A DNA stretch of 44,628 nucleotides from Bacteroidales bacterium (GCA_049520195.1 JBEKQA010000002.1:1-44628), one strand, 5' to 3'. Numbered from the stretch's first letter, positions 475-21,990 are shown. A program made the numbers and translations. Notes: a model not told the origin generated them from the sequence alone.

Positions 475-478
475 AATT

Positions 479-817: not shown

Positions 818-1130
818 TAAAAACTTTCTTGTAAAAATTCATTATTGCAAATATATTAAGGAAATATTACTCTTCCCAGCTGATCAGTTGATTAACATGA
901 TGAAAAATTAAACTGTTGTTTACACAATGTGATCCTTCTCTTCATCTACTTTTTGAGAAGTACTCTAAAGTCATATAAAATTATACCAAACTCATTGATT
1001 AGTGTAAGAAAAAAAAGTAATATTCCATTTTCCAGAGATCATAAGATCAAAAAGGAAAGAACCCTTGTTTCCGTGACTTTCCCAATTTTCAAAATTGAGA
1101 AACCAAGAATAAGGTAAGAAATCTATTGCA

Positions 1131-1460
1131 TCATTTGTTCTTTTCATACTTAAATGAATGAGCTTCTTTGGCAAGAGCGTTCATTTTTGACCGATATTCT
1201 GGTACAGTCAAATATGCCTGTAGAAGTTTATAAAGATCGACATCCCCCGCAGAACCACTCATAATATTTAACACGTCTGTAAAAACAACAACGGCGTTAT
1301 TTATATCGTTGATTGAAATTTTCTCAAGATCAGTACCTTTCCGCTCTTTATTCACTTTATCTACTAAAGGTTTCCCATCGGTTGATTGATATTGACTGAA
1401 CTGTGAAAGAAACTCAATGAGTTTTTCGTGCCTGACCTGTTTTTCTGGTTTTGCTGTCAT
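1131..1460 (-). CDS. hypothetical protein (109 aa)
   Basis: ORF track. Last gene of a tightly spaced minus-strand run (25-nt gap to the upstream gene). No motif recognised. Confidence 0.5.
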   Translation of the reverse strand: MTAKPEKQVRHEKLIEFLSQFSQYQSTDGKPLVDKVNKERKGTDLEKISINDINNAVVVFTDVLNIMSGSAGDVDLYKLLQAYLTVPEYRSKMNALAKEAHSFKYEKNK

Positions 1461-1485
1461 AGTTATACTTTATAATTGAAAGATG

Positions 1486-1827
1486 TCAAACAATACCTAT
1501 AATACTTAAAATCACTCCAAGAATTATTAAGAGCATGCCAGTATTAACATATTTTTTTTCAGCGTTATGTTTTTTAAATTCGAGTTCACCACCATCGTAA
1601 AAGGAACCATAAAATGGTGTTCTCAATGAAGAAATAACTATACCTAAAATGTTAAAATACAGCCCAATTGCTGAAATAATTTTAGAAGTAAGTAGGAAAT
1701 TTATTTTTAGTTCATTAATAAGAAATCCAATAATAATGAGAGTTCCAAGAATTAAAATTATCATATGAATTGGTGTCCATTTCACTTTTATTTCATTGTC
1801 TTTAGGGTATTTGGGTTCGATAGGCAT
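1486..1827 (-). CDS. small integral membrane protein, about 3 predicted TM helices
   Basis: Three hydrophobic stretches: IHMIILILGTLIIIGFLI, IISAIGLYFNILGIVISSL and GMLLIILGVILSIIGIV. 23-nt gap to the upstream gene. Confidence 0.6.
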   Translation of the reverse strand: MPIEPKYPKDNEIKVKWTPIHMIILILGTLIIIGFLINELKINFLLTSKIISAIGLYFNILGIVISSLRTPFYGSFYDGGELEFKKHNAEKKYVNTGMLLIILGVILSIIGIV

Positions 1828-1850
1828 AATCCATCTTAAAGCAAAAAGAG

Positions 1851-2402
1851 TTATTTCCTATTAATCAGATCTTTAAGGTCATTTAGAAACTTTGGATCAT
1901 TTTTAAGTTTAAATCTAATTTTTTCAACTAAAACACTATCTTGCTTGGTTGTACTAATATTATTGTCATTGATAAAACCTTTATGGTCGGGTTTCATCTG
2001 AATCCAAAGATTTATACCTATGCTAAATGCTGGAACGACTATGGCTACCACAATTGCAATTTTTGATAGTTTTTTCGAAGAATGAATTCCTTCAATGTTA
2101 TTGATCATGCTATCTCTTTGTAATTGTTTATCCTCTTCAATCGATTGAAAATATTTCACAATTCCAACTTTCGCTGCATTATATCCTTCTGGGGTCAATG
2201 CAATAGTATATTCCGAATTACCTAGATAATAAAGTAATCCAACTTGTTCTCTTAAAAACTCTTTGATGTAAGACCATTCAAATTCCTCATATCCTTTATT
2301 GTTCATTTCAGACGGATAATCGTCAAGTGAACTCTTACCCCCTTTTTTCTCAATGTATTTTAAGAGATAATCTGCAATCTCTCTTTGCCGTTCATTTAAC
2401 AT
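1851..2402 (-). CDS. hypothetical membrane-anchored protein (soluble N-terminal domain, possibly winged-helix-like, plus one TM helix)
   Basis: ORF track. Has a single TM segment, IAIVVAIVVPAFSIGINLWI. Its start overlaps the stop of the upstream gene by 11 nt. Confidence 0.6.
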   Translation of the reverse strand: MLNERQREIADYLLKYIEKKGGKSSLDDYPSEMNNKGYEEFEWSYIKEFLREQVGLLYYLGNSEYTIALTPEGYNAAKVGIVKYFQSIEEDKQLQRDSMINNIEGIHSSKKLSKIAIVVAIVVPAFSIGINLWIQMKPDHKGFINDNNISTTKQDSVLVEKIRFKLKNDPKFLNDLKDLINRK

Positions 2403-3081
2403 CCTTTTTATTTTTTAGATCTTCAATTTTCCAAAGTGAATAGTTCAATTTATACATTATTTTAAAAGCTTCACAGCACTGTTTTACTATATCTACAAAA
2501 TTGGTATCAGGTGTCCATATTATTTTAAATTCCCCTATAGAACCAACCTCATTGTGTTCCAGCATTCCCAAAAAGTACTTTCTAAATATTCTAAATATCA
2601 TACATTTATACCCATTAAATAGGTCTGAATATTTTTTTTGAATCTCCGTGCTAACAAACTCATATTCCTCATATTCAAAGCCGGGAAACTCAGATAAAAC
2701 AAATAGTTGCTTCCAGAATACATCACCCATATTCTTTAAATTCTGTGTTTGTCTCAAGTCAGTTTTTAAATAGACTCCTTTTCTACTCAAACCTAACATA
2801 AATTCTGTCTCAGTTTTTTGTGATTTAATAATTAACTCAGGCCCTTCAATATGAAGATAAAAATGACCAATATCCCATCTATCTTTGAATTTACCATATT
2901 TAATACAAAGTTCAGAGATCCCTGAAAACGTATTCACTACATTAAGGGTTATATTCTCTTGAAGGTCAGTAGAATGATCCACATCAGAATTCCAGATTCT
3001 TGTATACTCGTTAATTTGATCGACCCAAGTATCAAACTTGTTTGAATTTTCTTTAATAATTTTATTAAGGAGTGTATTCAT
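2392..3081 (-). CDS. hypothetical protein (229 aa from Met39 of the tracked ORF)
   Basis: ORF 2392..3195. The first 38 codons are low-complexity read-through, so the likely start is MNTLLNKIIKE at 3081. No motif recognised. First gene of the 4-gene minus-strand operon. Confidence 0.55.
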   Translation of the reverse strand: MNTLLNKIIKENSNKFDTWVDQINEYTRIWNSDVDHSTDLQENITLNVVNTFSGISELCIKYGKFKDRWDIGHFYLHIEGPELIIKSQKTETEFMLGLSRKGVYLKTDLRQTQNLKNMGDVFWKQLFVLSEFPGFEYEEYEFVSTEIQKKYSDLFNGYKCMIFRIFRKYFLGMLEHNEVGSIGEFKIIWTPDTNFVDIVKQCCEAFKIMYKLNYSLWKIEDLKNKKDVK

Positions 3082-3656
3082 AGTTTGACCATTCAGAATG
3101 ATAGACAAAACAAAATTAGAGCATTTAATAGATAACCGTGCTGTTTGTGTATAAATTGTAAAATGCCTACTTGTAAATAAAATTACAATAAACATTTAAA
3201 ACCCAGTTCACTTTACCTCAATGATTATTCAATTTAGGACTCACAAAGAAATCATTTCAGAATTACTTGATTTTCAATGTTGGAATTGATGTTTATTGGT
3301 TTAAATATGTAAAATTAAAAGAAAAATCAGGCCTTACATGGGAATGTTATTAACAGCAAAAAAACAGATACGCAGGATTTGTTGTGGCATATGGTTCATA
3401 AGTAGAAAATTGAAGAGAACTTAAATTCGCTAATTACCATGCCCTGTAAGATTCAACTATAAATCATAAACCTGACCGTATAATCTATTTTACCGAAGAG
3501 AACCCACAACCGTTGAATTTTCAATAATTTAGTACAGACAGGGATATCAAATCAAGACAGCGGCTTGGTTCGACTAATTGAAAATGAAACAACTTGCACC
3601 TTGAACCGAATCCGGGTTGAAGATAAAGTTGTGGGACATTCACCATGGTGATTTTT

Positions 3657-3707
3657 TACGTTAATTCCTGTTATACCTACGGTAATTACCAAAAGACATA
3701 CGGATAA
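3657..3707 (+). promoter_or_regulatory. three direct 9-bp boxes at exact 21-bp spacing (candidate LytTR binding array), 75 bp upstream of the LytTR regulator ATG
   Basis: TACGTTAAT at 3657, TACGGTAAT at 3678 and TACGGATAA at 3699. The whole ~64-bp module recurs at 7602..7652 with roughly 78% identity by hand alignment. Confidence 0.6.
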
Positions 3708-3773
3708 TAAGTTTAGTTTTTTGAAATGCCGATAATCTCTACCTTTATTCCACTTTTATTCAAAGAATACACT

Positions 3774-4550
3774 ATGGACAAAATAACGTGTGTCATAATT
3801 GATGATGAAAGAGTGGCACGAGAGACCTTTCGTGATATTATTGACCGATATATGACTGATCGATTAAATGTAATTGGTATGGCGGAATCGGTCAAAGAGG
3901 GTGTTGAATTGATTAAGAAATACCACCCTGATCTTGTATTTCTTGATATTGTGATGCCGAATGAGAGTGGTTTCAAACTCTTCGATTATTTCACCCAGTA
4001 TAATTTTGAAGTCATTTTTACGACCGGTTTCGAGCAGTACGCAATTGAGGCGATCAAATATGCTGCTTTGGACTATCTTCTTAAACCGATAAATTTTCTT
4101 GATCTTCGAGAATCTATTTCCCGTTACGAAAAGAAAAAATTGACCAATAGTAGTCAACAACGGATCGAGACTTTAATAACAAACCTGACTGTAGGGGTTG
4201 ATATCAATCAGAAGATAGCCTTTCCTACAATGGACGGGTATCAGATGGAGAAACTTAATGATATAACATATTGTGAAGGAAATGTGAATTATACCAATGT
4301 CTATACCTTTGATGGACGGATAATATTGGTCGCAAGATCTCTGAAAGAAGTTGAAGAACTCTTTTCCTGTCACTACTTCTATCGGATTCATAAATCCTAT
4401 TTGGTCAATCTGAACTATGTGAAATCATATTCCCGTAGTGAGAACGGGATTCATTTGGATAACGGACAGGAGCTTCCTGTATCCTTCAGAAATAATGATG
4501 AATTCTTACGTGTTTTGACAAAATGGAGAGAACAAACTAACAATAATTGA
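3774..4550 (+). CDS. LytTR-family two-component response regulator (REC + LytTR DNA-binding domain)
   Basis: Receiver motifs: MDKITCVIIDDE, PDLVFLDIVMP, LKP. The C-terminal region (FYRIHKSYLVNLNYV ... LPVSF) is typical of the LytTR domain. Start moved to Met17 of the tracked ORF. Confidence 0.9.
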   Translation: MDKITCVIIDDERVARETFRDIIDRYMTDRLNVIGMAESVKEGVELIKKYHPDLVFLDIVMPNESGFKLFDYFTQYNFEVIFTTGFEQYAIEAIKYAALDYLLKPINFLDLRESISRYEKKKLTNSSQQRIETLITNLTVGVDINQKIAFPTMDGYQMEKLNDITYCEGNVNYTNVYTFDGRIILVARSLKEVEELFSCHYFYRIHKSYLVNLNYVKSYSRSENGIHLDNGQELPVSFRNNDEFLRVLTKWREQTNNN

Positions 4551-7500
4551 GTAAAGGATTTCTCATCGGTCTTTTTGTTTCGCTCACCAGTCTTGCCTGG
4601 AGTCAACACTACTATTCCCGAAACTTCACCGTCAATGATGGTTTACCGTCCAACACAGTCAGGTGTATCTATAAAGACACCCAAGGCCGGATGTGGATTG
4701 GAACAGGAGCAGGTTTGTGTCTATTCGATGGAAAAAGTTTCCGGACTTTCGGGGTCAACAATGGCATGATTGGAGAAAGTGTTTTTTCAATCACCGAAGA
4801 TGATAATCAAAACCTCTGGATAGGATGTATGAAAGGAGGTATCTAAAAATATGATGGAAAAACGTTTATCAATTATTCAACCAAACAGGGGCTAGTCAAT
4901 GATAATGTCCGAGTGGTATGGTATTCCAAAAAGTTCCATCTGTTGTTTATCGGGACAGAAGATGGTTGTAGTGTGTTCGATGGTAAATTATTTGTTTCAT
5001 TAAGTGCAAAGGATTCAAAATCAAATGATTTACATGTGATGGGTTTTCTTGAGGGGGAAGATTACGTTTGTATCTATCCGTACGATCACAAACCATACTA
5101 CAAGTATTACCCTAAAACCCGGAAATTCATCGTTGTTAATGATTTTTATTATTTGACCCATAACACTTCGACTTCTCCACGGATTTATGCTGATGGTGAT
5201 ACAATTATAGGGAGTATACGGGAAGGGGTGAATATCCTGCACTATGGAATCAAACGATCCTTTAAAGAAATGGGACAAGTGTTCGATATAAAGCCAGATC
5301 AAACCGGTAATTTATGGATTGCCTGTTGGTCAGAAAACAAGTTTTCAAAGGATATGCCTGGCGGGTTATTTAAGTATGATGGGAAAGAGGTTATCAGGTA
5401 TAGTGAAAAGTTTGGCATTACTGATCCTACAGTTTGGAACTTGTATTATGATACTACCTTCAATATTTTGTGGGTTGGGACTCTTAACTCAGGAATGTAC
5501 AAAATACCACTACCTGCGTTTACGTGGTATGATAAGGATGATTTTGGTTTACAGGAATTGAATGTGACAGCATTGTTATCGGACAAAGATAATAATTTGT
5601 GGATCGGAACGAAGGGATTTTTGTTAATCCGACAACCGGATGGAAAGATTAAGATTTGTGATAATGGATTCATTAAAAGGATTATTGGATCATATCCACT
5701 TGAGTACGGATGCATCAAACAGGATCGAGTTGGAAACATCTATTCTTGTGTTTATCAATCTCCTTTATTAAAGTATTCACAGGTAAACAATTTCTCTAAA
5801 CCCCAGATTGTACGCATTAAACCAGCAGCGACCCAGTTTACATTTGATAACCAAGATACCGTTTTTTATTCTGACAGGTGGTGGGATGGTGTTTTTCATT
5901 GTTCCATTTCTCCGAAAATCACAGACGCTGTTTATTGGGGTTTTAAAGATAGAAACGCACCACCAGATGTCATAAAGATGATTTCTACTGGAGACATTAT
6001 TTGGTATATTAGTCAAACAGAAGGACTATTCCGTTCGTACCGAGGTCACATTGATTATTTACGGAAAAATGATTCCTCACTCCCACGCATAATCAACGAT
6101 ATTTGTTTTGATGGCCGTGGTAACATCATCATTGGAAGTAACACGGGCGAAATTATTATTGCCCGATATCAGGAGAATGGACTAAAGATCAGATATAGGT
6201 TACAACCGGGAAAAGAAATCATCGGGAATACCGTCAAATTTCTTATAGTGGATAAGGCTAACCATCTATTCATAGGAACAAACCTTGGATTAAACCGAAT
6301 TGATTTGAATACGTTAAACCACGAAAACAGGGTCAAATCTAATTTCTATGACAATGAGGTCGGATATTATGACTATTCTGGTAAGGTTGCAGGATGTGAC
6401 CGGGAGGGTAATATCTGGGTGGGTACTGATAGCCATCTGTTGAAAATTGACACAAAACTGTTGGACAAGTTATCCGCAGGGAAACCAAAAATAAAAATCA
6501 TTGGCTTAGAAGTGAATTATCAACCTGATTCAAATTTTAATTCCGATTATGTTAGAAACTTCTCACATAGTGATAATAATTTGATATTCCATTTTACAGC
6601 AACCAACTACCTGAATCCTAATCAAACTCTTTATCGTTATAAACTTGAAGGATTGGCCGACCACTGGTCGGAATATTCGACTGAAATTAAAGCCGTTTTA
6701 ACATCACTCAATTATGGTAAGTACCGGTTAATCGTTGAGGCATACAATCGAATGGATAATTCAAAAACGGGAAGTACGATTTACTCATTCCATATCAGAT
6801 TTCCTTGGTACTTGAATGGCTGGTTCATTACTGGAACATTGGTTTTTCTGATTCTAAGCATTTATTGGATAATCCGCCTCCGGATAAATCAAATTAAAAT
6901 ATCGGAACAGACAAAATCGGAATTCGCCCGTCAATTATCCACAATTGAAATGCGTGGATTACAATCCCAAATGAATCCCCATTTTATCTTTAATTCGATC
7001 AACTCTATACAGGGGTTTATTCTGAAAAACAAAGTGGATGACGCTATTGGTTATTTGCAAAACTTCTCCAAGATAATTCGTCAAACCCTTGATAACGCAA
7101 CGAAAGAGTATATTTCACTGGATGAAGAAATAGAATACATCAAATGGTATTTGAATCTCGAATTGATGAGATTTGATAATAAGTTTAAGGTTGAATTTCG
7201 TATACATGAAAATCTAAACCCACAGAATATTCAAATTCCCCCGATGATTATCCAACCTTATGTTGAAAACGCTGTCCGTCATGGATTATTCCACAAAGAA
7301 GATGGTGAAGGATTACTTTTAATAGACATTTCAATTGAAGGAGAGAACCTCAAGTGTGTTATCGAAGATAACGGTGTGGGTAGGAAAAAATCAAAAGAAA
7401 TTGATAGTTGGCGGGATCTCCAACATAAACCCCAATCCACACGGATAACCCAAGAAAGAATTGATCTTCTGAATAAATCCACTCAATCAGATAAATATAG

Positions 7501-7585
7501 GGTGACCATCAAAGACATTTGTAATCGAATCGGTGACGTAAAAGGCACTCAGGTTGAAATTATCCTTCCATTGAGAACCCCATAA
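4547..7585 (+). pseudogene. LytS/YehU-type sensor histidine kinase with N-terminal signal/TM, beta-propeller sensor repeats, a TM helix, and His_kinase + HATPase domains; interrupted by one in-frame TAA at 4844..4846
   Basis: ORFs 4547..4846 and 4913..7585 are in the same frame (both coordinates are 2 mod 3). Translation reads straight through: ...WIGCMKGGI*KYDGKTFINYSTKQGLVNDNVRVVWYSKK. Kinase hallmarks are NPHFIFNSINSI (LytS-type H-box), PMIIQPYVENAVRHG and DNGVG. The TTG start overlaps the regulator's stop (TTGA). Confidence 0.8.
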
Positions 7586-7601
7586 ATGAGTCCTTCCAAA
7601 A

Positions 7602-7652
7602 TACGTTAATTCCTTTTATACCTACGGTAATCGTCAAAAAGGGTACGTTAAA
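7602..7652 (+). promoter_or_regulatory. second copy of the three-box, 21-bp-spaced array, 73 bp upstream of the 7717 ATG
   Basis: TACGTTAAT at 7602, TACGGTAAT at 7623 and TACGTTAAA at 7644. Same order, orientation and distance to the start codon as the 3657 array. Confidence 0.6.
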
Positions 7653-7716
7653 TAAGTTAAGTTATTTATCCCGTTTTTCAATATTAATTTCACGACGAAA
7701 CTTAAAAAACGAAATC

Positions 7717-8457
7717 ATGAAAAATCCTCACATCTTCTGGATCGGATTCCATCAACGAAATCTAAAATGTTTTTTAGACCATTTTTCAAGAAGGTCGGTC
7801 TTTCTTCTTGGAATAATCCTCATTGTTCTAATATTTATTAGTTGTACCAGCAAGGAAAAAGGAATAAATGTTTTAGTTGGAGAATGGAATTATTCTGGCA
7901 TCCAAACCGAGCTGACCATAACTAAACAAGATACTACTGTAATAGGAATTTTGAATCAAACTTTACATGACAATATGCAAAGCCCATCAATAGAATATCC
8001 CGTTGGAAGTGTTCTATTTAAAGATATTAAAAAATTGTCTGATACAACTTTTATTGCTAAGGGGCTATACATAAAACCTGTATATAGAACAGAAGAAGTA
8101 TTTGTTCGTTCTTACTTTACTTTTCAAAAAGACCATTATGAAACTACAAAGGTTTTTGACCATAATGAAAATATTTACGTGGATTATAGATTAATGTTGA
8201 GAGTAAAACTTGAGAACATAAAATCAAAATTTATACGGTATGATGAACTCAATTGTATACCTTTTGTAGAAGGTCCTAGATGGACATTCTTTGGGAAATT
8301 ATCTCCGGAAGATAAAATATTTCTTGAACAAGAAATAAAAATAGTCAATGATTCCATAAGAATAGCCGATTCTACAGCCGTGAAGAAAGCCGAGCAAATA
8401 CGCCAAAAAGCCATCGATTCTCAAAAATCAAAGAGAGCACAGGAATTGTTAAAGTAA
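7717..8457 (+). CDS. putative lipoprotein, unknown function
   Basis: Hydrophobic segment ending in a lipobox-like LIFISC, followed by TSKEKG. No other motif recognised. Confidence 0.6.
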   Translation: MKNPHIFWIGFHQRNLKCFLDHFSRRSVFLLGIILIVLIFISCTSKEKGINVLVGEWNYSGIQTELTITKQDTTVIGILNQTLHDNMQSPSIEYPVGSVLFKDIKKLSDTTFIAKGLYIKPVYRTEEVFVRSYFTFQKDHYETTKVFDHNENIYVDYRLMLRVKLENIKSKFIRYDELNCIPFVEGPRWTFFGKLSPEDKIFLEQEIKIVNDSIRIADSTAVKKAEQIRQKAIDSQKSKRAQELLK

Positions 8458-8490
8458 TCATTTTTTCCCATAACCCAAAAGGATTGTATT

Positions 8491-10605
8491 ATGAAAAAAG
8501 TATACACTTGTTTTATGTTCTTTCTTTTCTTACCCGTTTTAATTATTGCACAACTCCAATCTGGTGATGAACACTGGAAACAATTTACTCAAATTAAAGA
8601 AGGTAAATATGTTTCCTCAATTGCTCATTCTGGGTCAGTTTATGCATGTTTTCAAGGAGAAACACCTACGACTTCAAATTCATATACAATTTATCAAATA
8701 TCTGAAAATGATGTTAAAGTGTATTCTCAAATTACACTTTCAGGTGATATTTATGGCCCGGGAGCTCAAATTACCTCAATGACATTTTTCAATAATGAAT
8801 TAATAGTAGCAGGAGTTTTTCAAAGAGTAAATGACAATTTAGCAAAAGGATGTGCAAGGTGGGATGGTGAGAATTGGAGAAGTCTTGGTTTAGGAATAGA
8901 AGGACTTGTCCTAAGTTGTGTTTCGTCAGAAAAAGAAGTCTTTTTCTATGGAATATTCGACAAAGCGGGGGGACAACCCGCACGAAGTTTTGTCAAATGG
9001 GATGGAAGTAGATGGTCAATACTGGCAAATATAAATTGTGATCAAGTCAAAATTGACTATAAAAAACCAATTTATAATGACTGGTATAACATAGGACGGT
9101 TGACCTTTTTTGATAATTATATTTATGCTGTTGGATGGATCGTGCATCCAATTCAGGGATACGACTATGTGTCAAAATGTAAGGATTCAAAATTCTTTAC
9201 TGGTCTTGTACGATATGTCATCTCAGAAAACAGATGGGAACAAGTTTTCCCATTTCAAAGGCCTTCCAGAGAAATTCCTAAGATTTATGGAATCAGTGCT
9301 TTTCTTGTTGTCGATAAATCTGTTTACATGGCGGGAATATTTGGAACAACAAAAGAAATCTCAATAAAAAAATTTGAAGATAATAAATGGACTTCTCTCG
9401 GAAATATTCAGGAACAAGGTACTGTCGAAAGTATAGTCTTTGTAAATGACGCTTTATATATTGGAGGCACATTCTCTGGAATAACAAATACTGTAGCTCA
9501 CAATATTGCAAAGTGGGATGGAACGAAATGGAATTCATTAGGTAGTGGTTTATCTGGAGGAATAAAAGGAGAAGTCCAAGTTGTAACAAAACCAAAACAC
9601 CCTGATGTACTGGAGTTCCCTCAAACTGATGTAGTAAAATGCCTTTATAATATAAATAATTCAATACTGACCCTCGGAAATTTTAACAAAGCAGGAGCAA
9701 TTTCGTCAAAGTATATCGCGGACTGGAATGAATCCGTTTCAATAGAAAAACCTAATTCTGATTCTTTATATAAGATCGCCGAAGAGAATTTCTATAATTC
9801 TAATGGGGCAAGTGCACTCGAGGAAATTAATCAAGCCATCGAAATGAATCCGAATAAACCAGAATGTTATTTATTGCGAGGAAGAATATATAGTAGCAAG
9901 TTAGAGAAATATGATGGCTCTAATGTACGTGATTTGGGAGCTGAAATTCAATCTATGATAAGGGAGTATATGAATAAAGCGGAAAATGATTTCAACACCG
10001 CAATTAAACTAAAACCTAATTGGGTCGAAGCATATATTCAAAGAGGATATTTGGGATATTTAGCATTGTCTAATCCATATCCATCCAAGATAAATGCTGA
10101 AGAAGATTTGGAAATGGCATCTCAATTGGATTCGGGAAACCCTTTCGCCTATTATTGTTTGGGCCTATATTATCGTAAGGAAAACTCTGAAAAAGCGGTA
10201 AGAAATTTCCAAGACGCTATAAAGTATTCTAAAACTCAGTTCATAACTGATTTGTCAAATTTTTATTTGGCTGAATACTACTTTCATAATGGGTCATTTC
10301 AGGAATCCATTAATTATATTAATGAGTTTCTTAAAAATGGTACTCAAGAAAATTGGTATTGGGCTAGGAGATATCGGGGGATGTCGAAATACAATTTGAA
10401 TGATTTTGATGGAGCACTTAAAGATTTTAATGACATATTATCCAAATTTCCTAATGATAAAGCGGTTGCTGATATTTATCGGTTCAAAGCTAGAATTTTG
10501 TTTAAAAAATCAGGAAACTTCAAGGACGCTTGTCCAGATATGAAAAAATCAAGTAACCTTGGAGACGAAGAGGCAACGAAATTCATGGAAGAAGTATGTA
10601 AATAA
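8491..10605 (+). CDS. secreted protein with N-terminal beta-propeller-like repeats and C-terminal TPR repeats
   Basis: Signal peptide MKKVYTCFMFFLFLPVLIIAQ. Recurrent blade-like motif hYhGGxF...A+WDGxxWxSLG (RWDGENWRSLG, KWDGSRWSIL, KFEDNKWTSLG, KWDGTKWNSLG). The C-terminal ~280 aa has TPR-like A/Y/N periodicity. Confidence 0.8.
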   Translation: MKKVYTCFMFFLFLPVLIIAQLQSGDEHWKQFTQIKEGKYVSSIAHSGSVYACFQGETPTTSNSYTIYQISENDVKVYSQITLSGDIYGPGAQITSMTFFNNELIVAGVFQRVNDNLAKGCARWDGENWRSLGLGIEGLVLSCVSSEKEVFFYGIFDKAGGQPARSFVKWDGSRWSILANINCDQVKIDYKKPIYNDWYNIGRLTFFDNYIYAVGWIVHPIQGYDYVSKCKDSKFFTGLVRYVISENRWEQVFPFQRPSREIPKIYGISAFLVVDKSVYMAGIFGTTKEISIKKFEDNKWTSLGNIQEQGTVESIVFVNDALYIGGTFSGITNTVAHNIAKWDGTKWNSLGSGLSGGIKGEVQVVTKPKHPDVLEFPQTDVVKCLYNINNSILTLGNFNKAGAISSKYIADWNESVSIEKPNSDSLYKIAEENFYNSNGASALEEINQAIEMNPNKPECYLLRGRIYSSKLEKYDGSNVRDLGAEIQSMIREYMNKAENDFNTAIKLKPNWVEAYIQRGYLGYLALSNPYPSKINAEEDLEMASQLDSGNPFAYYCLGLYYRKENSEKAVRNFQDAIKYSKTQFITDLSNFYLAEYYFHNGSFQESINYINEFLKNGTQENWYWARRYRGMSKYNLNDFDGALKDFNDILSKFPNDKAVADIYRFKARILFKKSGNFKDACPDMKKSSNLGDEEATKFMEEVCK

Positions 10606-10653
10606 CTAATAATGGTAAAAATGAGAACAAGTCTGATTATTTCCTTAATACTT
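10465..10653 (+). repeat. junction repeat copy A (intact 3' end of the TPR gene, its stop, and a truncated signal-peptide start)
   Basis: Aligns by eye over about 185 bp with 12318..12500 (roughly three-quarters identity). Its core, GAAATTCATGGARRAAGTATGTAAATAACTAWAAATG, also matches 11449..11488. Confidence 0.75.
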
Positions 10654-10686
10654 ACTTTTTTGTGCGGAATTGATTCATTTCATTGA
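10612..10686 (+). pseudogene. 24-codon remnant ORF encoding only a signal peptide (MVKMRTSLIISLILTFLCGIDSFH*)
   Basis: Nucleotide-homologous to the 5' end of gene 12468 (MKTKVIITLILLWLG...) but terminates after 24 codons. Confidence 0.45.
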
Positions 10687-10717
10687 TGGTATAAAATAAT
10701 CTATAAAACTTATAAAT

Positions 10718-11389
10718 ATGAAAAAATCAATTTTTCTGATAACCATTCTGATGGGGTTATCAATGGCAGTTAATTCTCAGAACCAACAACTTAAATCAGT
10801 TACAGGAACTTTTGTCAAAGCGAATGCTTTTGAAGCATCTTTCAACGTGATATTTGAGAATGAATCAGGTAAAGAAATCTCATTCTCAATAAACGGCGAT
10901 TATAAAATTAATGGGAAAAATATCATTAAATATGATCCAACACTTGTTGATCATAACAAACCCGGATTCTCTGGTGATGACGGTTATATAGCAAATCCTG
11001 AATTCGTCAATAAAAAAATGAAAGTGACATATAAATTAGTTAAAGTTTCGCAAGAGGAGAAGGATCGAGGAATTGAGGATTACGAACAAGTAGTCAAATT
11101 GGAATTGATTTCATCCGATCAAGGACAAACAGCATCTGCAACATGGATGGTAATTTTTGGTTCATTTAAAACCCAAAATGAAGCGATAAATTCACAGAAA
11201 CAGTTCATGACAAAGTATCAACTTCAAACCGAAGTGTTGAATTCTAACAATTTTCAAAATTTGACTAAGGATCTCTTTATTGTTGTCGGTGGGAAAAATC
11301 TGACAAATGTCTGTGCTAAACAACTTTTGGATAAGATAAAGGGGATGAAAATTGAGGGATATATAAAAGATGGAGGTTTGATGAAATAA
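10718..11389 (+). CDS. secreted protein with possible C-terminal SPOR-like (peptidoglycan-binding) domain
   Basis: Signal peptide MKKSIFLITILMGLSMAVNSQ. The C-terminal WMVIFGSFKTQNEAINSQKQF...LFIVVGGKNLTNVCAKQLLDKIK resembles the beta-alpha-beta-beta SPOR pattern. Weak, judged by eye only. Confidence 0.65.
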   Translation: MKKSIFLITILMGLSMAVNSQNQQLKSVTGTFVKANAFEASFNVIFENESGKEISFSINGDYKINGKNIIKYDPTLVDHNKPGFSGDDGYIANPEFVNKKMKVTYKLVKVSQEEKDRGIEDYEQVVKLELISSDQGQTASATWMVIFGSFKTQNEAINSQKQFMTKYQLQTEVLNSNNFQNLTKDLFIVVGGKNLTNVCAKQLLDKIKGMKIEGYIKDGGLMK

Positions 11390-11446
11390 TGGAGAAAATG
11401 GTCAAATTGATTATCATTAGTCCGGTGTAAGTTGAATACTATAATC

Positions 11447-11505
11447 TAAAGAAATTCATGGAGAAAGTATGTAAATAACTAAAAAATGAAAATTATGAAA
11501 ACAAT
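11447..11505 (+). repeat. junction repeat copy B (short fragment of the TPR gene 3' end, stop, and next gene start)
   Basis: AAAGAAATTCATGGAGAAAGTATGTAAATAACTAAAAAATG matches the last ~25 nt plus stop of gene 8491..10605 (KFMEEVCK*) and its downstream spacer. Confidence 0.7.
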
Positions 11506-12271
11506 TAGTCAAATTCTTGCAATAATCCTCCTTTTTATAGGGGTGTATTCTACAACTGGCCAAACAAAGTCTAATGTAAATACTAATAATACAGTCCAAA
11601 ATAATCTAGGGAAAGTCAATCTTTATGCTGGTATGAATTCTTTTGAAGGAATCTATGACAAATCTAAAGTGACCGAATTACAATTAAAAAACACATGGGA
11701 TTTAATTAATAATCTATCTAACTATACTGATCTTGAATCTCAACTTCGTTTAATGTACCTCAAACCCGAAAATTTAAAAAATATTAATACCGAGTCTTTA
11801 AAAAAAGAATATTCAGAAAAAATAAACCAATTAAAGAAATTAGATATTATCAAATCCATATTCTGGGAAGATCTTAGGGAGGATGTTTTAAAAGAGATCG
11901 AACAAGAATTTACATACACAGAAACTATCATTCAAAGTTTTAAGAATCCGGAAAAACTTAAACAGTATGATTCTTTAAATGTTTGTGCAAAATTCACTGA
12001 TGCTTTATTAAAGGGCGGCGAGCAATTATTGATAACATGGAAGGAATTGAACCAAGAACAACAAAAAAATAATGCTTGTCCTGAGTGTGTAATAAAGGAA
12101 TTTAATCAAAAGTATAATTCTCCTAATAAATTGGATTATGCTCGCATCGAAGTGGTTACCTTTGGCTGGGGAAATTGTATTACTTTAAAATCGTATGTTC
12201 CAGATTGGAAGTTACTTGATGCAGAATTCAGAAAAATCTTCATTAAGATTAACGACAACGCAGGAATTTAA
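11486..12271 (+). CDS. secreted hypothetical protein
   Basis: Signal peptide MKIMKTISQILAIILLFIGVYSTTGQ. No domain recognised. Confidence 0.65.
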   Translation: MKIMKTISQILAIILLFIGVYSTTGQTKSNVNTNNTVQNNLGKVNLYAGMNSFEGIYDKSKVTELQLKNTWDLINNLSNYTDLESQLRLMYLKPENLKNINTESLKKEYSEKINQLKKLDIIKSIFWEDLREDVLKEIEQEFTYTETIIQSFKNPEKLKQYDSLNVCAKFTDALLKGGEQLLITWKELNQEQQKNNACPECVIKEFNQKYNSPNKLDYARIEVVTFGWGNCITLKSYVPDWKLLDAEFRKIFIKINDNAGI

Positions 12272-12317
12272 GGATACATCATATATAACTTTTTATCATT
12301 AAATTTTTAATTGATAG

Positions 12318-12500
12318 GTTGCAAACATTTATCAATTCAGAGCTAAAATATTAATTACTCGGAAACTTCAAAGATGCTTATCCAGATATGAAAAAGACAG
12401 TTAACTTGAGGATTATAAGACACGAAATTCATAGAGGAACTATGTATATAACTTAAAAATTGTAAAAATGAAAACAAAAGTGATTATTACTTTAATACTC
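12318..12500 (+). repeat. junction repeat copy C (frame-broken copy of the last ~140 nt of the TPR gene, spacer, and 5' end of gene 12468)
   Basis: GGTTGCAAACATTTATCAATTCAGAGCTAAAATA...GGAAACTTCAAAGATGCTTATCCAGATATGAAAAAGACAGTTAACTTGAGG...GAAATTCATAGAGGAACTATGTATATAACTTAAAAATTGTAAAAATGAAAACAA aligns with 10465..10653. The copy no longer maintains the reading frame. Confidence 0.75.
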
Positions 12501-13109
12501 CTTTGGTTAGGAGTAGTTCCTTTTCAGGGACACACACAAAAACCAACATTAAGAGTATTTACACTTGATCAAAGTATTTTCTCTTGTGGTGATGCTGATG
12601 TTCTAATCGTACTTTTCTTTTCTTCGGATTCTGTGAAAGGAATCCAACAGACCTTTGGGGCAGAAGGAAACGAAATCTGTGCAGAACCTTCAGGTTGTTA
12701 TCTTGGGAAAGTTTCTCAGCAATCAATAACTGGAAGTTTCTTACCGGACTATTTCAATAACGTATTTAAATCCCCTTTGACATTCAAACTTACTCTTAAC
12801 AATAATATGCTTGATGTCTCAAAAAATAATGGCACAAAATATTCATTTATTGAAGCTGATACACAAGGATGGATGTATACTACTTCATCAATTAACTTAC
12901 GAGAAAAACCCTCCTCAAATTCAAAAATATTGACTAAAATACCAAAAGATCAAACAGTCTATCTTCTTGAATTTGGTTTCTATAGAACAATCGGAGATAA
13001 AAAAGGGTTTTGGACAAAAGTAAAATTTGGTGATCAGGAGGGATGGGTGTTTGGATCATATTTAATGCACACTGATTCAAATACTGGCGAAGAAGGAGTT
13101 GGTAATTGA
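12468..13109 (+). CDS. secreted protein with C-terminal bacterial SH3 (SH3b-like) domain
   Basis: Signal peptide MKTKVIITLILLWLGVVPFQGHTQ. The C-terminal INLREKPSSNSKILTKIPKDQTVYLLE...GFWTKVKFGDQEGWVFGSYL matches the SH3_3 pattern. Confidence 0.75.
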   Translation: MKTKVIITLILLWLGVVPFQGHTQKPTLRVFTLDQSIFSCGDADVLIVLFFSSDSVKGIQQTFGAEGNEICAEPSGCYLGKVSQQSITGSFLPDYFNNVFKSPLTFKLTLNNNMLDVSKNNGTKYSFIEADTQGWMYTTSSINLREKPSSNSKILTKIPKDQTVYLLEFGFYRTIGDKKGFWTKVKFGDQEGWVFGSYLMHTDSNTGEEGVGN

Positions 13110-13307
13110 ATTTTATCACTTTTATCGATTTTAAAGGACTCCACCATTTTCACATCAAGCACCTCAAGAAATATAACCAAACCCAAATCGTGATTTTAAA
13201 TATCTACGAATATCTTTCTATAATCATAGAAAAATCCTCCTGAAGTAATTCTCTCATTCTAACCAGTTTCGTTTTTTTTACCCATCTGCCACAATTAATT
13301 TTGTGGT

Positions 13308-15005
13308 ATGAAAAAGACACCGACTTTCAAACCTGCTTCTATCCTCGAGCATATAGAGTTTATAACAAACAAAGCCCGAGGATCATCTCTTACGGATGAT
13401 TTCATCAATGTAGTACAAGAATCAACACAGGCAGTAGGAGAATTCTTAGGTTGTGCACCGATAGAAGCACTTTATTTTTCAGTCATATGCAGTCTGAACT
13501 TCAGAGCACAGTATGTAGACATTGAGGATCTTTCTGATTTCTTCGAAGTTCACCCGATCAGTATTCTTCGAAATATTGAAGTGTTCTCTAATCTCGTTAA
13601 ACTCGGGCTGTTAAGAAAAGATATTGGGGAACGAAAGAGACGGAGAAGATGTCCCGACAGAATGAGTACTATAAAGCTTTACATACCACGCGAGGTTTTT
13701 AAGTCAGTTGTTGATGGAGTAAAACCAGAATTAACACCTAAAACTACAAAAGTAACAGCCTTTGATTTCTTGGGGATTGTTTCAGATTTGGTTGAAGAAC
13801 GAGATAATGAAATTATCTCCTTTGATGAAATGATGGAAGAAATCAATCAACTTTTTGTCGATAATCCAGAACTTGAATTGATCAAACATCTTGGGCAGTT
13901 GAATCTTGAAGCTGATGATCTTATTATTTTACTCTATGTCCTTTCCGAATATGTTACCTATGAACCAACTGTCGATTTGGCAAGAACCATTAGAGGACTT
14001 TTTGATGATGCGAATACTCAAATGGAGATTCGTCGCTCTTTTCTACAAGGGAAACATGAACTGATCAGAAAGAATCTTATTAAATTATCGGATGGTAATT
14101 TTAAATCTGATAAGACCATCGAACTCACCGAAAATGCAATCGATCTGCTAGTGCCGGAGAAGGAACTGTTTGTTAAGAAAGAAAGTCGGCAGGTGAATTT
14201 AATTCTCCCTAATGAAATTGATGAACGGAAACTTTACTTTTCTCCCGAATTGACTAAAAACGTTGACTTCCTTTATGAGGCCTTAAAACCGGCCAGATTC
14301 CGGGAAATTTCATCACGATTAATTGATAATGGTCTAAAAGGTGCGTGCACAATTTTACTTTATGGGAGGGCGGCAGGCACAGGGAAAACAGAACTCATCA
14401 AACAATTAGCTAAGACAACAAATAGACCATTAAAGATGGTTGTCATCTCTGAGCTTCGCTCTTACTGGTATGGGCAAAGTGAAAAAATTCTTAAGCAGCT
14501 GATGACTGATTATTATAACAGCGTTCAAAACAGTGAAGTTTCATCAATTTTGCTTTTTAACGAATGCAACTTCTCAACTCGTAAAACAAATGGGAATAAT
14601 TCCACGGATTCTACGGAAACAAACATTATCAACATTCTACTTCAGGAATTTGAAGATCTACATCCCAACAGCATTGTCTGTTGCACAACCAACATATGTG
14701 AATCACTCGATCCATCCTTCTCCCGCCGATTTTTAATGAAACTACATTTTGATGCACCATCAACAGAAGCAAAACTTCACATCTGGCTTGATCGTATTCC
14801 GACATTGAGCGAAAAAGAAGCGTGGGATTTAGCTGAAAAATTCAGCTTGACCGGTGGAGAAATCGATAACATTTGTAAGAAATACCATATGAATCAAATC
14901 CTTTATGGAAATTATCCCGGTCTTGAGGATATGGAAAGGTTTTGCAGGGAAGAAACACTGGTAAAAAACACTGCAAGGAAGAGGATTGGGTTCGTGAGTG
15001 GATAA
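13308..15005 (+). CDS. classic-clade AAA+ ATPase with a ~330-aa uncharacterised N-terminal region
   Basis: Walker A in LLYGRAAGTGKTELIK; YGQSEKILKQL; Walker B position ILLFNEC (N where D is usual); sensor-1/second region of homology CCTTNICESLDPSFSRRF. Confidence 0.85.
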   Translation: MKKTPTFKPASILEHIEFITNKARGSSLTDDFINVVQESTQAVGEFLGCAPIEALYFSVICSLNFRAQYVDIEDLSDFFEVHPISILRNIEVFSNLVKLGLLRKDIGERKRRRRCPDRMSTIKLYIPREVFKSVVDGVKPELTPKTTKVTAFDFLGIVSDLVEERDNEIISFDEMMEEINQLFVDNPELELIKHLGQLNLEADDLIILLYVLSEYVTYEPTVDLARTIRGLFDDANTQMEIRRSFLQGKHELIRKNLIKLSDGNFKSDKTIELTENAIDLLVPEKELFVKKESRQVNLILPNEIDERKLYFSPELTKNVDFLYEALKPARFREISSRLIDNGLKGACTILLYGRAAGTGKTELIKQLAKTTNRPLKMVVISELRSYWYGQSEKILKQLMTDYYNSVQNSEVSSILLFNECNFSTRKTNGNNSTDSTETNIINILLQEFEDLHPNSIVCCTTNICESLDPSFSRRFLMKLHFDAPSTEAKLHIWLDRIPTLSEKEAWDLAEKFSLTGGEIDNICKKYHMNQILYGNYPGLEDMERFCREETLVKNTARKRIGFVSG

Positions 15006-15144
15006 AAAACCTTATTGAAAAGATGACAGAATGACAGAAAAGGAATCGTCATAAATCACAGAAAAACAAATACATACAAATTTGGGTATTTGATAGTAAA
15101 TAATGGATAATAAACATTAGTTAAAACACCACTGTAAAAGAATT

Positions 15145-15723
15145 ATGAAAGTAGCAATCTACGCAAGGGTCAGTACTAAAACGAAAGGTCAGGATGTAGA
15201 GAACCAATTGATGGTTCTACGGGATTACTGCATTAAGATGGGTCATACAGTATACCAAGTATATACCGATCAAGAAAGTGGTAGTAAGTCAGACCGGCCT
15301 GCTTTCAATCAGCTTTTCTCTGATGCTGCAAAACGAAGATTTGACCTTTTACTTTTCTGGTCACTTGACCGATTCTCAAGAGAAGGCACTCGTAAAACTA
15401 TTTTCTTACTTCAACAACTCGATGATTATGGCGTACTTTACAAATCTTACAGCGAACAATACCTCGATTCAAGTGGGATTTTTAAAGATGTTATTATCTC
15501 AATCCTTGCAACACTGGCCAAGCAGGAACAGATACGATTATCGGAACGGGTTCGGGCAGGGTTAGAAAAAGCGAAATCAAAAGGGAGGATTGGCGGTCGT
15601 CCACACATTTCACAGGACACTATCAGCCAAATCGGCATTCTTGGTCAAAGAGGTCTCTCCCTTCGAAGCATCGGTAAGAGATTAAATGTGAATCATAGAA
15701 CGGTGGCTAAGTATTTGAGCTGA
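15145..15723 (+). CDS. small serine recombinase (resolvase/invertase family) with C-terminal HTH
   Basis: N-terminal MKVAIYARVSTKTKGQDVENQ (catalytic Ser motif), DRFSREG, and a C-terminal HTH-like GLSLRSIGKRLNVNHRTVAKYL. Confidence 0.9.
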   Translation: MKVAIYARVSTKTKGQDVENQLMVLRDYCIKMGHTVYQVYTDQESGSKSDRPAFNQLFSDAAKRRFDLLLFWSLDRFSREGTRKTIFLLQQLDDYGVLYKSYSEQYLDSSGIFKDVIISILATLAKQEQIRLSERVRAGLEKAKSKGRIGGRPHISQDTISQIGILGQRGLSLRSIGKRLNVNHRTVAKYLS

Positions 15724-15759
15724 TAACCACGGCCGATTCATAACCGCCGACCCATTTAG

Positions 15760-16233
15760 ATGCAAAATATTGGGGAGGGAGTGGTGAAACTATTTTTTTA
15801 TCTCACCGATTTTTCTTATATTAGTAATTATAATACCAATTTAGTGATTATGATACCAAGTAGAATTAGGAAAAGTAAAAAACAAATATTGTCTTTGTTT
15901 GAATACTTGAAAGAGTCTGGTGTTACCTGTGAAGTAGACCTTTATTATTTGGATGAAGATTTTAAACCGAATGGAAGGAAGGGTGTACACATCGACCTTA
16001 ATAAAATACCGATGAATATCATCAATGGAGAAGAAAACTATATTCTGTCAATAATTATTCATGATACATACAGTTTCGTTCTTGAAAATCATCGACCTCA
16101 GAGTAATGGAATTACTATTAATCAAATTGAACTGTTAATGGACGAGTGTTACGGAGAAGAAATTATTAACTATAAAAGATTGACAAGGTTGAATGATATC
16201 CTGAATGACCCCAATCCACACCCATTGATATAG
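15760..16233 (+). CDS. hypothetical protein (true start may be Met31 at 15850)
   Basis: ORF track only. The N-terminal 30 codons cover the tandem repeat and may be non-coding. Confidence 0.4.
   Translation: MQNIGEGVVKLFFYLTDFSYISNYNTNLVIMIPSRIRKSKKQILSLFEYLKESGVTCEVDLYYLDEDFKPNGRKGVHIDLNKIPMNIINGEENYILSIIIHDTYSFVLENHRPQSNGITINQIELLMDECYGEEIINYKRLTRLNDILNDPNPHPLI
15821..15860 (+). repeat. tandem 20-bp direct repeat (2 copies, 17/20 identical)
   Basis: TTAGTAATTATAATACCAAT / TTAGTGATTATGATACCAAG, about 100 bp downstream of the small recombinase stop. Confidence 0.6.
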
Positions 16234-16583
16234 ACACAAGGTCAAGGTGAGGTATCAGCAATCACCTATTCTTCCAAGATTTTCGAGTAATCGATGATAG
16301 AACCAAATTTATTCATGTTTTACAAGACAGTACCATACGTTTCAACCTTGCAATGTCAATGACCACATACAGCGGCCTGTTTTTGGCGATATTTCTTGAA
16401 ATATTCACCCGGTAGATTTTCAGTGTTTTTCTAAAACGCGTTTTTTTTCAACCAGCATTTTCAGATTTTTGTCTCTGAAAATAGTTAGATATTTTAAACT
16501 TTTTTTTCAATCCTTCATATATGTGGATATCCGACCTCGGTTAGATATTATTCCATCAGGGACAAAAAAGAATCCATGAATGA

Positions 16584-16761
16584 ATGTTTGAAAATGAAGA
16601 AAAAGATGTTTATGATGAATTATTCAAAGCCGCAAAGTTCACAAATGATGAATTAAAAAAATATCCGGTATGTAAGAATTTTACTGAAGAAGAATTAACG
16701 AGAATGTCAGACTTTCTGTTTGATTTAGGCATCATAGCCCAAAAAATAATGATCGAATGTA

Positions 16762-16769
<8 letters not shown>
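16584..16769 (+). CDS. small acidic hypothetical protein (61 aa) overlapping the large serine recombinase start by 8 nt
   Basis: ORF track. The ATGAATGA overlap with the downstream gene suggests coupling. No motif recognised. Confidence 0.4.
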
Positions 16770-18436
<1,667 letters not shown>

Positions 18437-21970: not shown

Positions 21971-21990
21971 TTTATCAGGAATTAACCTGG

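What the first reader, a model, noticed from the sequence alone, without database searches (positions are those of the whole stretch)
10465..12500. Cassette-like gene array: three copies of a junction sequence, including decayed copies of a neighbouring gene's 3' and 5' ends
What the sequence shows:
- The last ~140 nt of the TPR-protein gene (8491..10605), its stop, the spacer and the first ~40 nt of a signal-peptide ORF recur at 12318..12500 (about 185 bp, roughly three-quarters identical by eye).
- At 12318..12500 the coding part is frame-broken, and the signal-peptide part is the real 5' end of gene 12468.
- In copy A the signal-peptide part is a 24-codon stump (10612..10686).
- A shorter copy of the core, GAAATTCATGGARRAAGTATGTAAATAACTAWAAATG, sits in front of gene 11486.

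Each gene in this run is therefore preceded by the same end-of-gene/start-of-gene junction.

Inference: genes 10718..12271 were inserted, or the array expanded, by recombination at this junction. This is a cassette-exchange architecture reminiscent of integron-like or recombinase-associated gene arrays, and it lies in an island that carries two serine recombinases.
Basis: seen in the sequence. Interest (0 to 1): 0.65.

Follow-up and report, generated by a model that had tools for sequence, protein, structure and literature searches.

The report
Recombination scars at an operon's variable end
Two extra secreted-protein genes were spliced in between a TPR-protein gene and its usual SH3-domain neighbour on a mobile island of an uncultured peat Bacteroidales bacterium, leaving decayed copies of the gene-end/gene-start junction; this looks like ordinary recombination scarring at a gene-turnover hot spot, not an integron-like cassette machine.

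Summary
The repeat is real. Copy A (10430/10464-10652) and copy C (12285/12317-12499) align at 76% over 190 columns. Copy B (11429-11534) shares an exact 31-nt core with A.

- C is a frame-broken 55-codon 3' end of a TPR gene fused to the true start of SH3 gene 12468.
- B keeps only 12-16 codons of the TPR end.
- A carries a truncated signal-peptide stump.

In sister loci from other metagenomes, the TPR gene is followed directly by the SH3-type gene. Genes 10718 and 11486 are therefore additions. DNA homology to the closest sister locus stops exactly at the TPR stop codon, so the junction is the edge of a conserved module (LytTR regulator, kinase, g7717, TPR).

Scars of the same kind occur in L002 (a 10-codon TPR-end remnant before its g10718-like gene) and in L006 (a 175-bp duplication flanking a g10718-like gene).

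Nothing supports a dedicated cassette system:
- the remnant lengths differ;
- there is no hairpin or dyad symmetry;
- the island has no tyrosine recombinase;
- exact identity runs are at most 18 nt;
- contigs from several peat samples show one fixed arrangement.

Best reading: homology-anchored insertion or displacement scars. Interest is modest.

The parts
8491..10605 (+). Intact 704-aa secreted beta-propeller plus TPR protein gene. It is the last gene of the conserved module (LytTR regulator, sensor kinase, g7717, TPR).
   Evidence: Pfam TPR hits. Orthologues at 50-71% identity sit in the same gene order in L002-L005. DNA homology to L002 ends at 10605.
10430..10605 (+). Copy A, coding part: the functional 3' end of the TPR gene (...VADIYRFKARILFKKSGNFKDACPDMKKSSNLGDEEATKFMEEVCK*).
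   Evidence: Alignments with copy C. nhmmer profile of TPR 3' ends.
10606..10686 (+). Copy A, spacer plus truncated signal-peptide stump. The ORF is 10612-10686, the homologous ATG is at 10621, and homology to gene 12468's start ends at about 10652.
   Evidence: MRTSLIISLILTFL versus MKTKVIITLILLWL.
10690..11390 (+). g10718 unit: a 223-aa secreted protein of unknown function plus 28 nt of leader. This is the extent of DNA homology to the g10718-like genes of L006-L009.
   Evidence: 77% nt identity for 10690-11390 versus L006 1236-1937. 74% aa identity to the L006 type but only 53% to L002's copy. AF2 model at pLDDT 73 with no PDB match.
11385..11414 (+). Possible fourth, partial junction copy: spacer plus the first codons of a signal peptide (MEKMVKLIII...), directly after the stop of g10718. 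Weak.
   Evidence: Alignment to 10608-10640, score 25. About 1% of shuffles reach it.
11429..11478 (+). Copy B, TPR 3'-end remnant of 12-16 codons (YNLKKFMEKVCK*).
   Evidence: Exact 31-nt core. blastn to L002's TPR end at 78% over 50 nt. nhmmer and tblastn.
11479..12271 (+). Spacer and g11486, a 258/261-aa secreted protein that is almost an orphan. Its start region (to about 11534) resembles that of copy C.
   Evidence: Only one distant homologue, at 25% identity, among 5.8 billion clusters.
12285..12451 (+). Copy C, frame-broken remnant of about 55 codons from a diverged TPR gene's 3' end.
   Evidence: (E 5e-17).
12452..13109 (+). Spacer and gene 12468, a 213-aa secreted SH3_3-domain protein. 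This is the gene type that normally follows the TPR gene directly.
   Evidence: Pfam SH3_3, 1.6e-10. Homologues lie directly after TPR in L003, L005, L002 and the P0003 locus.
15145..15723 (+). Small serine recombinase (resolvase/invertase type), 80% identical to the one in L002. It marks the far end of the variable cargo region.
16762..18405 (+). Large serine recombinase at the right end of the island. Synteny with relatives begins at era (18431).

Best explanation
The three junction copies are scars of homology-anchored gene gain at the downstream edge of a conserved operon module. The module is a LytTR response regulator, a propeller sensor kinase, g7717 and a beta-propeller/TPR protein. 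It is carried on a family of mobile islands in peat and wetland Bacteroidales.

The ancestral state is the TPR gene followed within 15-70 nt by a fast-evolving secreted SH3-domain gene.

Inferred mechanism. DNA from sister elements entered by recombination anchored in the conserved module or in the junction itself. The other end joined imprecisely. Each event left a stub of the displaced TPR 3' end of a different length (C about 55 codons, B 12-16 codons) in front of the gene that used to follow it. Copy A likewise kept a 5' stub of a displaced SH3-type gene.

Net result: about 1.85 kb carrying g10718 and g11486 now sits between TPR and SH3 gene 12468. All genes point the same way and no terminator was detected, so they are probably co-transcribed from the g7717 promoter.

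The copies are now too diverged to recombine efficiently, and the arrangement is fixed in the sampled population.

Shown: the repeats, their pseudogene nature, the direct TPR-SH3 adjacency in relatives, the homology break at the TPR stop codon, independent scars of the same kind elsewhere, and the absence of site-specific hallmarks. Inferred: the order of events and the recombination mechanism.
For: - Repeats are real and far above chance.
- C is a frame-broken TPR end and B a shorter one.
- TPR is directly followed by an SH3-type gene in L003, L005, L002 and the P0003 locus.
- The 79% DNA homology between window and L002 stops at the TPR stop codon, 10605.
- Content between TPR and the resolvase differs in every locus with enough sequence: window, L002 and L004.
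- L002 has its own 10-codon TPR-end remnant (5998-6028). It abuts the shortened end of its SH3 gene and lies 27 nt before its g10718-like gene.
- The L006/L007 g10718-like gene is flanked by a 175-bp, 85% duplication of the neighbouring gene's start.
- g10718 is closer to the L006 type (74% aa) than to L002's copy (53%). Flanking genes are 71-80% identical to L002's, which points to separate acquisition.
- L004 has an unrelated 203-aa gene behind a 28-nt initiation block that is 96% identical to copy C, so a breakpoint lies inside the signal-peptide region.
- Longest exact identity is 15 nt for A-C, 18 nt for A-B and 11 nt for B-C.
- Contigs from runs X1, X2, X5 and X7 span the junctions without mismatches or joints.
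Against: - Only six or seven related loci exist in the databases searched, and three of them end soon after the junction. The ancestral state rests on few cases.
- Sister modules are only 65-79% identical at the DNA level. That is poor substrate for RecA, so closer, unsampled donors must be assumed.
- Two independent short remnants (B and L002's) both keep roughly the last 10-16 codons. g10718-like genes sit behind a truncated gene fragment in all three mobile contexts. This regularity is more than a purely random-endpoint model predicts.
- Codon-position analysis of A versus C (12/8/17 differences at positions 1/2/3) cannot tell an imported allele from in-situ decay.
- Only assembled contigs were available, not raw or long reads, so rare rearrangements cannot be excluded.
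Confidence: 0.55

Rival explanations
1. Active cassette system. Promoterless gene circles that carry a copy of the junction integrate by a single Campbell-type crossover in the junction and excise the same way. The crossover would be catalysed by RecA or by one of the island's serine recombinases, so downstream secreted-protein genes are swapped among sister elements.
For: - A single crossover in the spacer would explain in one step why A has an intact TPR end with a dead signal-peptide start, while C has a dead TPR end with a live start.
- The same polarity is seen in L006: truncated copy, inserted gene, intact copy.
- A short core precedes a downstream gene in the independent locus L002.
- Two serine recombinases are nearby.
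Against: - Remnant lengths differ: 55, 12-16 and 10 codons.
- No dyad symmetry or hairpin.
- No other core copies in the window, for instance near the recombinase genes.
- Identity runs of at most 18 nt.
- No joints or variant orders in eight peat runs.
- The core was not found in the metagenome contig collection.
Confidence: 0.17
2. In-situ tandem duplication. The segment made of the TPR 3' end plus the SH3 gene was duplicated locally. The copies then diverged, and parts were deleted or overwritten by unrelated genes.
For: - Direct repeats in the same orientation, 1.85 kb apart.
- Differences between A and C are spread over all codon positions, as expected for neutral decay of one copy.
Against: - g10718 and g11486 are unrelated to the SH3 gene and to each other.
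- g10718 has closer relatives in other elements than in the sister locus.
- C is as far from A (76%) as from the TPR ends of distant loci (74-76%), which fits an imported allele.
- Several extra replacement steps are needed.
Confidence: 0.13
3. The short core is kept by selection because it works as an expression signal. It would combine stop codons in all three frames with an A-rich initiation region, giving termination and re-initiation (translational coupling) for each downstream gene. This does not exclude the other models.
For: - In A and B the 18 nt AAGTATGTAAATAACTAA contains stops in all three frames just before the next ATG (read directly from the sequence).
- A-B identity is 31/33 in the core, although everything upstream of it is lost.
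- The spacer plus start is better conserved between A and C (81%) than the coding part (75%).
- A 28-nt initiation block is 96% identical between C and the distant locus L004.
Against: - Copy C has stops in only two frames.
- L002, L003 and L005 have different spacers.
- nhmmer finds no core in front of other genes of the related loci.
- AT-rich DNA makes such stop clusters easily.
Confidence: 0.15

Closest known systems
[quoted passage not shown] 2011, PMC3150448)
   Same: A full-length gene is followed by small genes, each preceded by a non-translatable 3' fragment of the main gene. The fragments keep varying amounts of upstream homology. Modules appear to be exchanged between strains, and the mechanism is unknown.
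   Different: - The main gene here is not a polymorphic toxin. Its C-terminus is conserved between loci and it has no toxin domain or VENN/PxxxxDPxGL-type demarcation.
- The variable part is the downstream gene only.
- The downstream genes show no immunity-family hits.
- There are only two remnants.
Target-gene end duplication by integrating elements, e.g. e14 in E. coli icd with the displaced icdC pseudogene (PMC13626634 and references therein)
   Same: An intact gene end lies on one side of the inserted DNA, and a displaced, homologous C-terminal pseudogene fragment lies on the other side, next to the original downstream sequence.
   Different: - The 1.85-kb insert here encodes no recombinase.
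- No excision was seen.
- A second, internal remnant (B) is present.
- The duplicated unit spans a gene end, a spacer and the next gene's start.
Integrons and the integron-like rAID-1 immunity-gene arrays of Bacteroidales (Ross et al., bioRxiv 10.1101/471110)
   Same: A same-orientation array of small genes with a repeated sequence at gene boundaries, in low-GC, horizontally acquired DNA of a Bacteroidales genome.
   Different: - No IntI or XerD-type tyrosine recombinase.
- No attC-like hairpins.
- The repeats derive from a neighbouring coding sequence and differ in length.
- There are three copies rather than tens.
- No immunity-gene homology.

Membership tests
Integron | Adjacent IntI-type tyrosine recombinase with attI | tested here: not met
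   Pfam scans of 17 island ORFs find only two serine recombinases (Resolvase; Resolvase plus Recombinase) and no Phage_integrase hit.
Integron | attC at each cassette boundary: an imperfect inverted repeat that folds as a single-strand hairpin | tested here: not met
   DNA folding of all three junctions on both strands gives z-scores from -1.0 to +1.3. No inverted repeat with a 6-nt seed in any core.
Integron | Recombination site of fixed extent at every cassette boundary | tested here: not met
   TPR-end remnants span about 55 codons (C), 12-16 codons (B) and about 10 codons (L002).
Integron | Promoterless cassettes in one orientation | tested here: inconclusive
   All genes from 7717 to 15005 are on the + strand. 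No convincing terminator lies between them, and promoter-like hits are at the shuffle level. No transcript data were available.
rAID-1 (recombinase-associated acquired interbacterial defence) | Conserved XerD-family tyrosine recombinase at the head of the array | tested here: not met
   The definition is taken from bioRxiv 10.1101/471110.
rAID-1 (recombinase-associated acquired interbacterial defence) | Array genes are orphan immunity-gene homologues | tested here: not met
   g10718 and g11486 have no hits in Pfam, NCBIfam or PADLOC. g12468 hits only SH3_3. The g10718 model has no PDB match.
rAID-1 (recombinase-associated acquired interbacterial defence) | Repetitive intergenic sequences and skewed GC content | tested here: inconclusive
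   There are three boundary repeats, but they derive from coding sequence. GC is 0.30-0.32 here against about 0.40-0.43 in the core genome.
CDI/Rhs orphan module array | 3' fragments of the main gene, of varying length, precede each downstream small gene | tested here: met
   Copies B and C. Compared with the description in PMC3150448.
CDI/Rhs orphan module array | Main gene encodes a polymorphic toxin whose variable C-terminus follows a conserved demarcation motif | tested here: not met
   The C-terminal 50 residues are conserved in all six orthologues. Only TPR domains are found.
e14-type integrative element with target-gene end duplication | Intact gene end and displaced homologous pseudo-end flank the insert | tested here: met
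   Copy A is intact and copy C is frame-broken. Compared with the icd/icdC description in PMC13626634.
e14-type integrative element with target-gene end duplication | Insert encodes its own integrase and excises | tested here: not met
   No recombinase lies between 10653 and 12284. No joints in eight metagenome runs, though only contigs were available.
Invertase shufflon / invertible cassette | Inverted repeats flanking the segments | tested here: not met
   The junction copies are all direct repeats. The only notable inverted repeat, 17 nt at 10924/13051, lies inside two coding regions and is only marginally unusual.

The most novel reading that the evidence does not exclude
The junction (conserved TPR 3' end, stop cluster, A-rich initiation block and start of a signal peptide) might be a dedicated docking site. 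Promoterless secreted-protein genes would be inserted there and swapped among a family of Bacteroidales mobile islands. The recombinase would be a serine recombinase or RecA rather than an integron integrase. g10718-type genes would be recurrent passengers, each time duplicating 170-220 bp of the target.
Probability: 0.1. Interest if true: 0.65.

Novelty: new member of a known kind. Interest (0 to 1): 0.3.

Why it matters
If the best reading holds, this is a clean, small example of how accessory genes are added at the edge of a conserved operon module on a mobile island. The leftover gene-end stubs record the order of events. That helps with annotation: the stubs are pseudogene fragments, not small genes. 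It also helps trace exchange between uncultured peat Bacteroidales.

It would matter more only if the junction proved to be an active docking site. That would be a cassette system without a tyrosine integrase.

Tried and rejected
- Scans for relatives. TPR orthologues were sought in the metagenome, GTDB genome and IMG/VR contig collections, and nothing related was found. An exact degenerate core search in metagenome contigs gave 0 hits. The plasmid collection gave only generic TPR hits and nothing for g10718.
- Transcription and long reads. No RNA runs and no Nanopore runs hold the region, so co-transcription and rare rearrangements could not be tested.
- Apparent loose ends. The loose ends at 11466, 12449 and 12461 looked at first like variant junctions. 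A closer look showed cross-matches of copy A on copy C and short spurious matches, so they were rejected.
- Deletion remnant idea. I tested whether the tail of stump A (10653-10717) matches the 3' end of an SH3 gene or L002's intergenic region, as a simple internal deletion would predict. There was no significant similarity.
- Function of the inserted genes. Pfam at relaxed thresholds, NCBIfam and PADLOC gave nothing for g10718 and g11486. The AF2 model of g10718 (pLDDT 73) has no PDB match with E <= 0.001. My impression that its C-terminal half looks SPOR-like remains untested.
- Codon-position analysis of A versus C was uninformative.
- A search of the intergenic segments for remnants of other module genes found only the TPR-end pieces.


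Full report
**Observation**

The region was read directly and its ORFs listed.

- A versus C. blastn of the window against itself gives 10464-10652 versus 12317-12499 at 76.3% over 190 columns (E 3e-29). A gapped local alignment extends this weakly to 10430/12285. The score is 153, against a maximum of 34 in 500 shuffles.
- The core. GAAATTCATGGARRAAGTATGTAAATAACTA is present exactly at 10578 and 11451, with none expected by chance.
- Copy C is a pseudogene. Its translation shows the pieces VANIYQFRAKIL, GNFKDAYPDMKKTVNL and TKFIEELC in three different frames. Relative to A it has two 4-nt and three 1-nt deletions. It is a decayed 3' end of a TPR gene, about 55 codons long, followed by the true start of gene 12468.
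- Copy A. The TPR end is the functional end of gene 8491-10605. It is followed by a stump ORF (10612-10686) whose homologous ATG is at 10621. Homology to 12468 stops near 10652.
- Copy B keeps YNLKKFMEKVCK* (about 11429/11440-11478) and a start region like that of C.
- A possible fourth fragment lies directly after the stop of g10718 (11385-11414). It resembles the spacer plus the first signal-peptide codons, but the match is marginal (about 1% of shuffles reach it).

**Context**

- Genes from 3726 to 13109: a LytTR response regulator, a Reg_prop/Y_Y_Y histidine kinase, g7717 (unknown), the beta-propeller/TPR protein, g10718 and g11486 (no family), and an SH3_3 protein (12468).
- After these come an AAA ATPase, a small serine recombinase (15145) and a large serine recombinase (16762).
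- GC is 0.29-0.38 up to about 18.4 kb and 0.40-0.43 beyond.
- The nearest genomes are uncultured Prolixibacteraceae/Bacteroidales MAGs, with Der 86-87% identical. Synteny with them begins at era (18431), and nothing upstream matches.
- Positions 1-18430 are therefore an accessory island with the large serine recombinase at its right end.
- The sequence comes from peat metagenomes.

**Comparative evidence**

The TPR protein has only six or seven orthologues among 5.8 billion clusters. Their contigs share the order kinase, g7717-like, TPR.

- In L003, L005 and the P0003 locus, the TPR gene is followed within 15-33 nt by an SH3-type gene. In L002 the gap is 70 nt.
- L004 has an unrelated 203-aa gene at that place. 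Its 28-nt initiation block is nevertheless 96% identical to that of copy C.
- DNA homology between the window and L002 (79%) runs from 7835 to exactly 10605, the TPR stop codon, and then ceases.
- The content between TPR and the resolvase differs in every locus long enough to show it:
  - window: stump, g10718, g11486, SH3, AAA;
  - L002: SH3, g10718-like;
  - L004: 203-aa gene, DUF6591 and several defence-type genes.

The junction is thus the boundary between a conserved module and a variable cargo region. Genes 10718 and 11486 are additions.

**Independent scars of the same kind**

- L002 carries AGGAAATTTGTAGAAGAAGTATGTAAGTAA (RKFVEEVCK*) at 5998-6028. This sits immediately after a shortened SH3 gene and 27 nt before its g10718-like gene.
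- In L006/L007, a g10718-like gene (74% aa identity to the window's) lies between two copies of a 175-bp segment at 85% identity. The segment consists of the upstream region and the first 37 codons or so of the next gene. The upstream copy is truncated.
- The window's g10718 is closer to that L006 type than to L002's copy (53%). Its neighbours are 71-80% identical to L002's. DNA homology covers only 10690-11390. The gene was therefore acquired separately.
- In chromosomal contexts (L010, L012) the family shows no such scars.

**Tests of a dedicated cassette system**

- Remnant lengths differ: about 55, 12-16 and about 10 codons.
- None of the junctions folds better than shuffles on either strand, and none has dyad symmetry.
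- No tyrosine recombinase is present in the island.
- No further core copies exist in the window or in the metagenome contig collection.
- The longest exact identities are 15 nt (A-C), 18 nt (A-B) and 11 nt (B-C). From general knowledge of RecA substrate requirements (roughly 20-30 bp), not tested here, this is short for efficient homologous recombination.
- Assembled contigs from eight peat runs cover the region. Error-free contigs span B (X2 11052-12429, X7 11396-11546), the g11486-to-C boundary (X5 12245-12414) and A (X2 10585-11054, X4 10502-10732). No joints were seen.
- Only contigs, not reads, could be examined. No RNA or long-read runs were available.

**Interpretation**

The best-supported reading is that these are scars of homology-anchored gene gain or displacement at a module boundary. 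Incoming DNA from sister elements recombined in or next to the conserved module and joined imprecisely at the other end. This left stubs of the displaced TPR end, and in A a stub of a displaced SH3-type gene.

The closest analogues in anatomy are:
- the orphan modules behind CDI/Rhs loci, whose fragments 'retain varying amounts' of upstream sequence (PMC3150448);
- the icd/icdC pair flanking e14 (PMC13626634).

Membership in either family fails on defining features. There is no polymorphic toxin, and the insert has no integrase. The integron and rAID-1 comparison (bioRxiv 10.1101/471110) fails on the recombinase and on site structure.

A Campbell-type insertion of a circle carrying its own decayed junction copy would explain the A/C polarity in one step, and it remains possible. 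So does some selection on the short core as a stop cluster plus initiation region.

The recurrence of g10718-type genes behind truncated gene fragments in three mobile contexts is the one regularity that the scar model does not fully explain.

**Verdict**

The insertion inference is supported and the integron-like mechanism is not. This is a further example of a known kind of recombination scar. Interest is modest.

Noticed in passing
window 4845 (within 4547-7585): The sensor histidine kinase is interrupted by an in-frame TAA in the window. The otherwise identical contig L001 (1 difference in 11.8 kb) has TCA (Ser) there. This is either a nonsense polymorphism in the population or an assembly error.
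   Followed up: yes
window 3657-3722 and 7602-7667; L002 2392-2457: A 66-nt direct repeat (80%) lies just upstream of the response-regulator gene and just upstream of g7717. It is also conserved upstream of the g7717-like gene of L002. It is probably a shared promoter or LytTR operator, which would make g7717-TPR and the downstream genes a regulon of the adjacent two-component system.
   Followed up: partly
L006 827-997 and 2045-2215 (same in L007): A g10718-like gene is flanked by a 175-bp, 85%-identical direct duplication of the neighbouring 74-aa gene's upstream region and first 37 codons or so. The upstream copy is a truncated 52-aa ORF. The anatomy matches window copies A and C.
   Followed up: partly
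L002 5998-6028: A 10-codon remnant of a TPR 3' end (RKFVEEVCK*) lies directly after the stop of a C-terminally shortened SH3 gene and 27 nt before the g10718-like gene.
   Followed up: yes
L004 4759-4785 vs window 12449-12476: A 28-nt initiation block (TAACTAAAAATTGTAAAAATGAAAACA) is 96% identical between two loci whose TPR proteins are only 50% identical. The mature downstream proteins are unrelated.
   Followed up: partly
window 10924-10940 and 13051-13067: A perfect 17-nt inverted repeat lies inside g10718 and inside SH3 gene 12468. Repeats of 17 nt or more occurred in about 3% of Markov-simulated regions. It is probably chance.
   Followed up: partly
window 13308-15005; L006 3379-5076: The 565-aa AAA ATPase resembles the anti-phage ATPase IetA/IteA, but far below the family cut-off. 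A 36%-identical homologue sits in the L006 element next to an ADP-ribosylglycohydrolase and a ParB/MT-A70 gene. The L004 cargo region holds GAPS4 defence genes.
   Followed up: no
window 18431 onward; window 1-18430: Synteny with the closest MAGs (Prolixibacteraceae/Bacteroidales, Der 86-87% identical) starts at era. Everything to the left is low-GC island DNA, and the large serine recombinase is its last gene. The left end of the island lies outside the window.
   Followed up: partly
window 15145-15723 vs L002 6817-7392: The small serine recombinase is 80% identical between the two loci but lies in opposite orientation relative to the TPR module. This suggests an inversion or a different assembly of the cargo region.
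   Followed up: no
window 11804-11809: Contig L001 and the X1 unitigs all break here, inside g11486 next to an A-rich run, whereas an X2 contig crosses it. This is most likely a coverage or homopolymer assembly break, not a structural variant.
   Followed up: partly
window 21939-21973: A 35-nt near-perfect palindrome (91%) lies at the end of gene 21165-21944. It is probably a bidirectional terminator.
   Followed up: no
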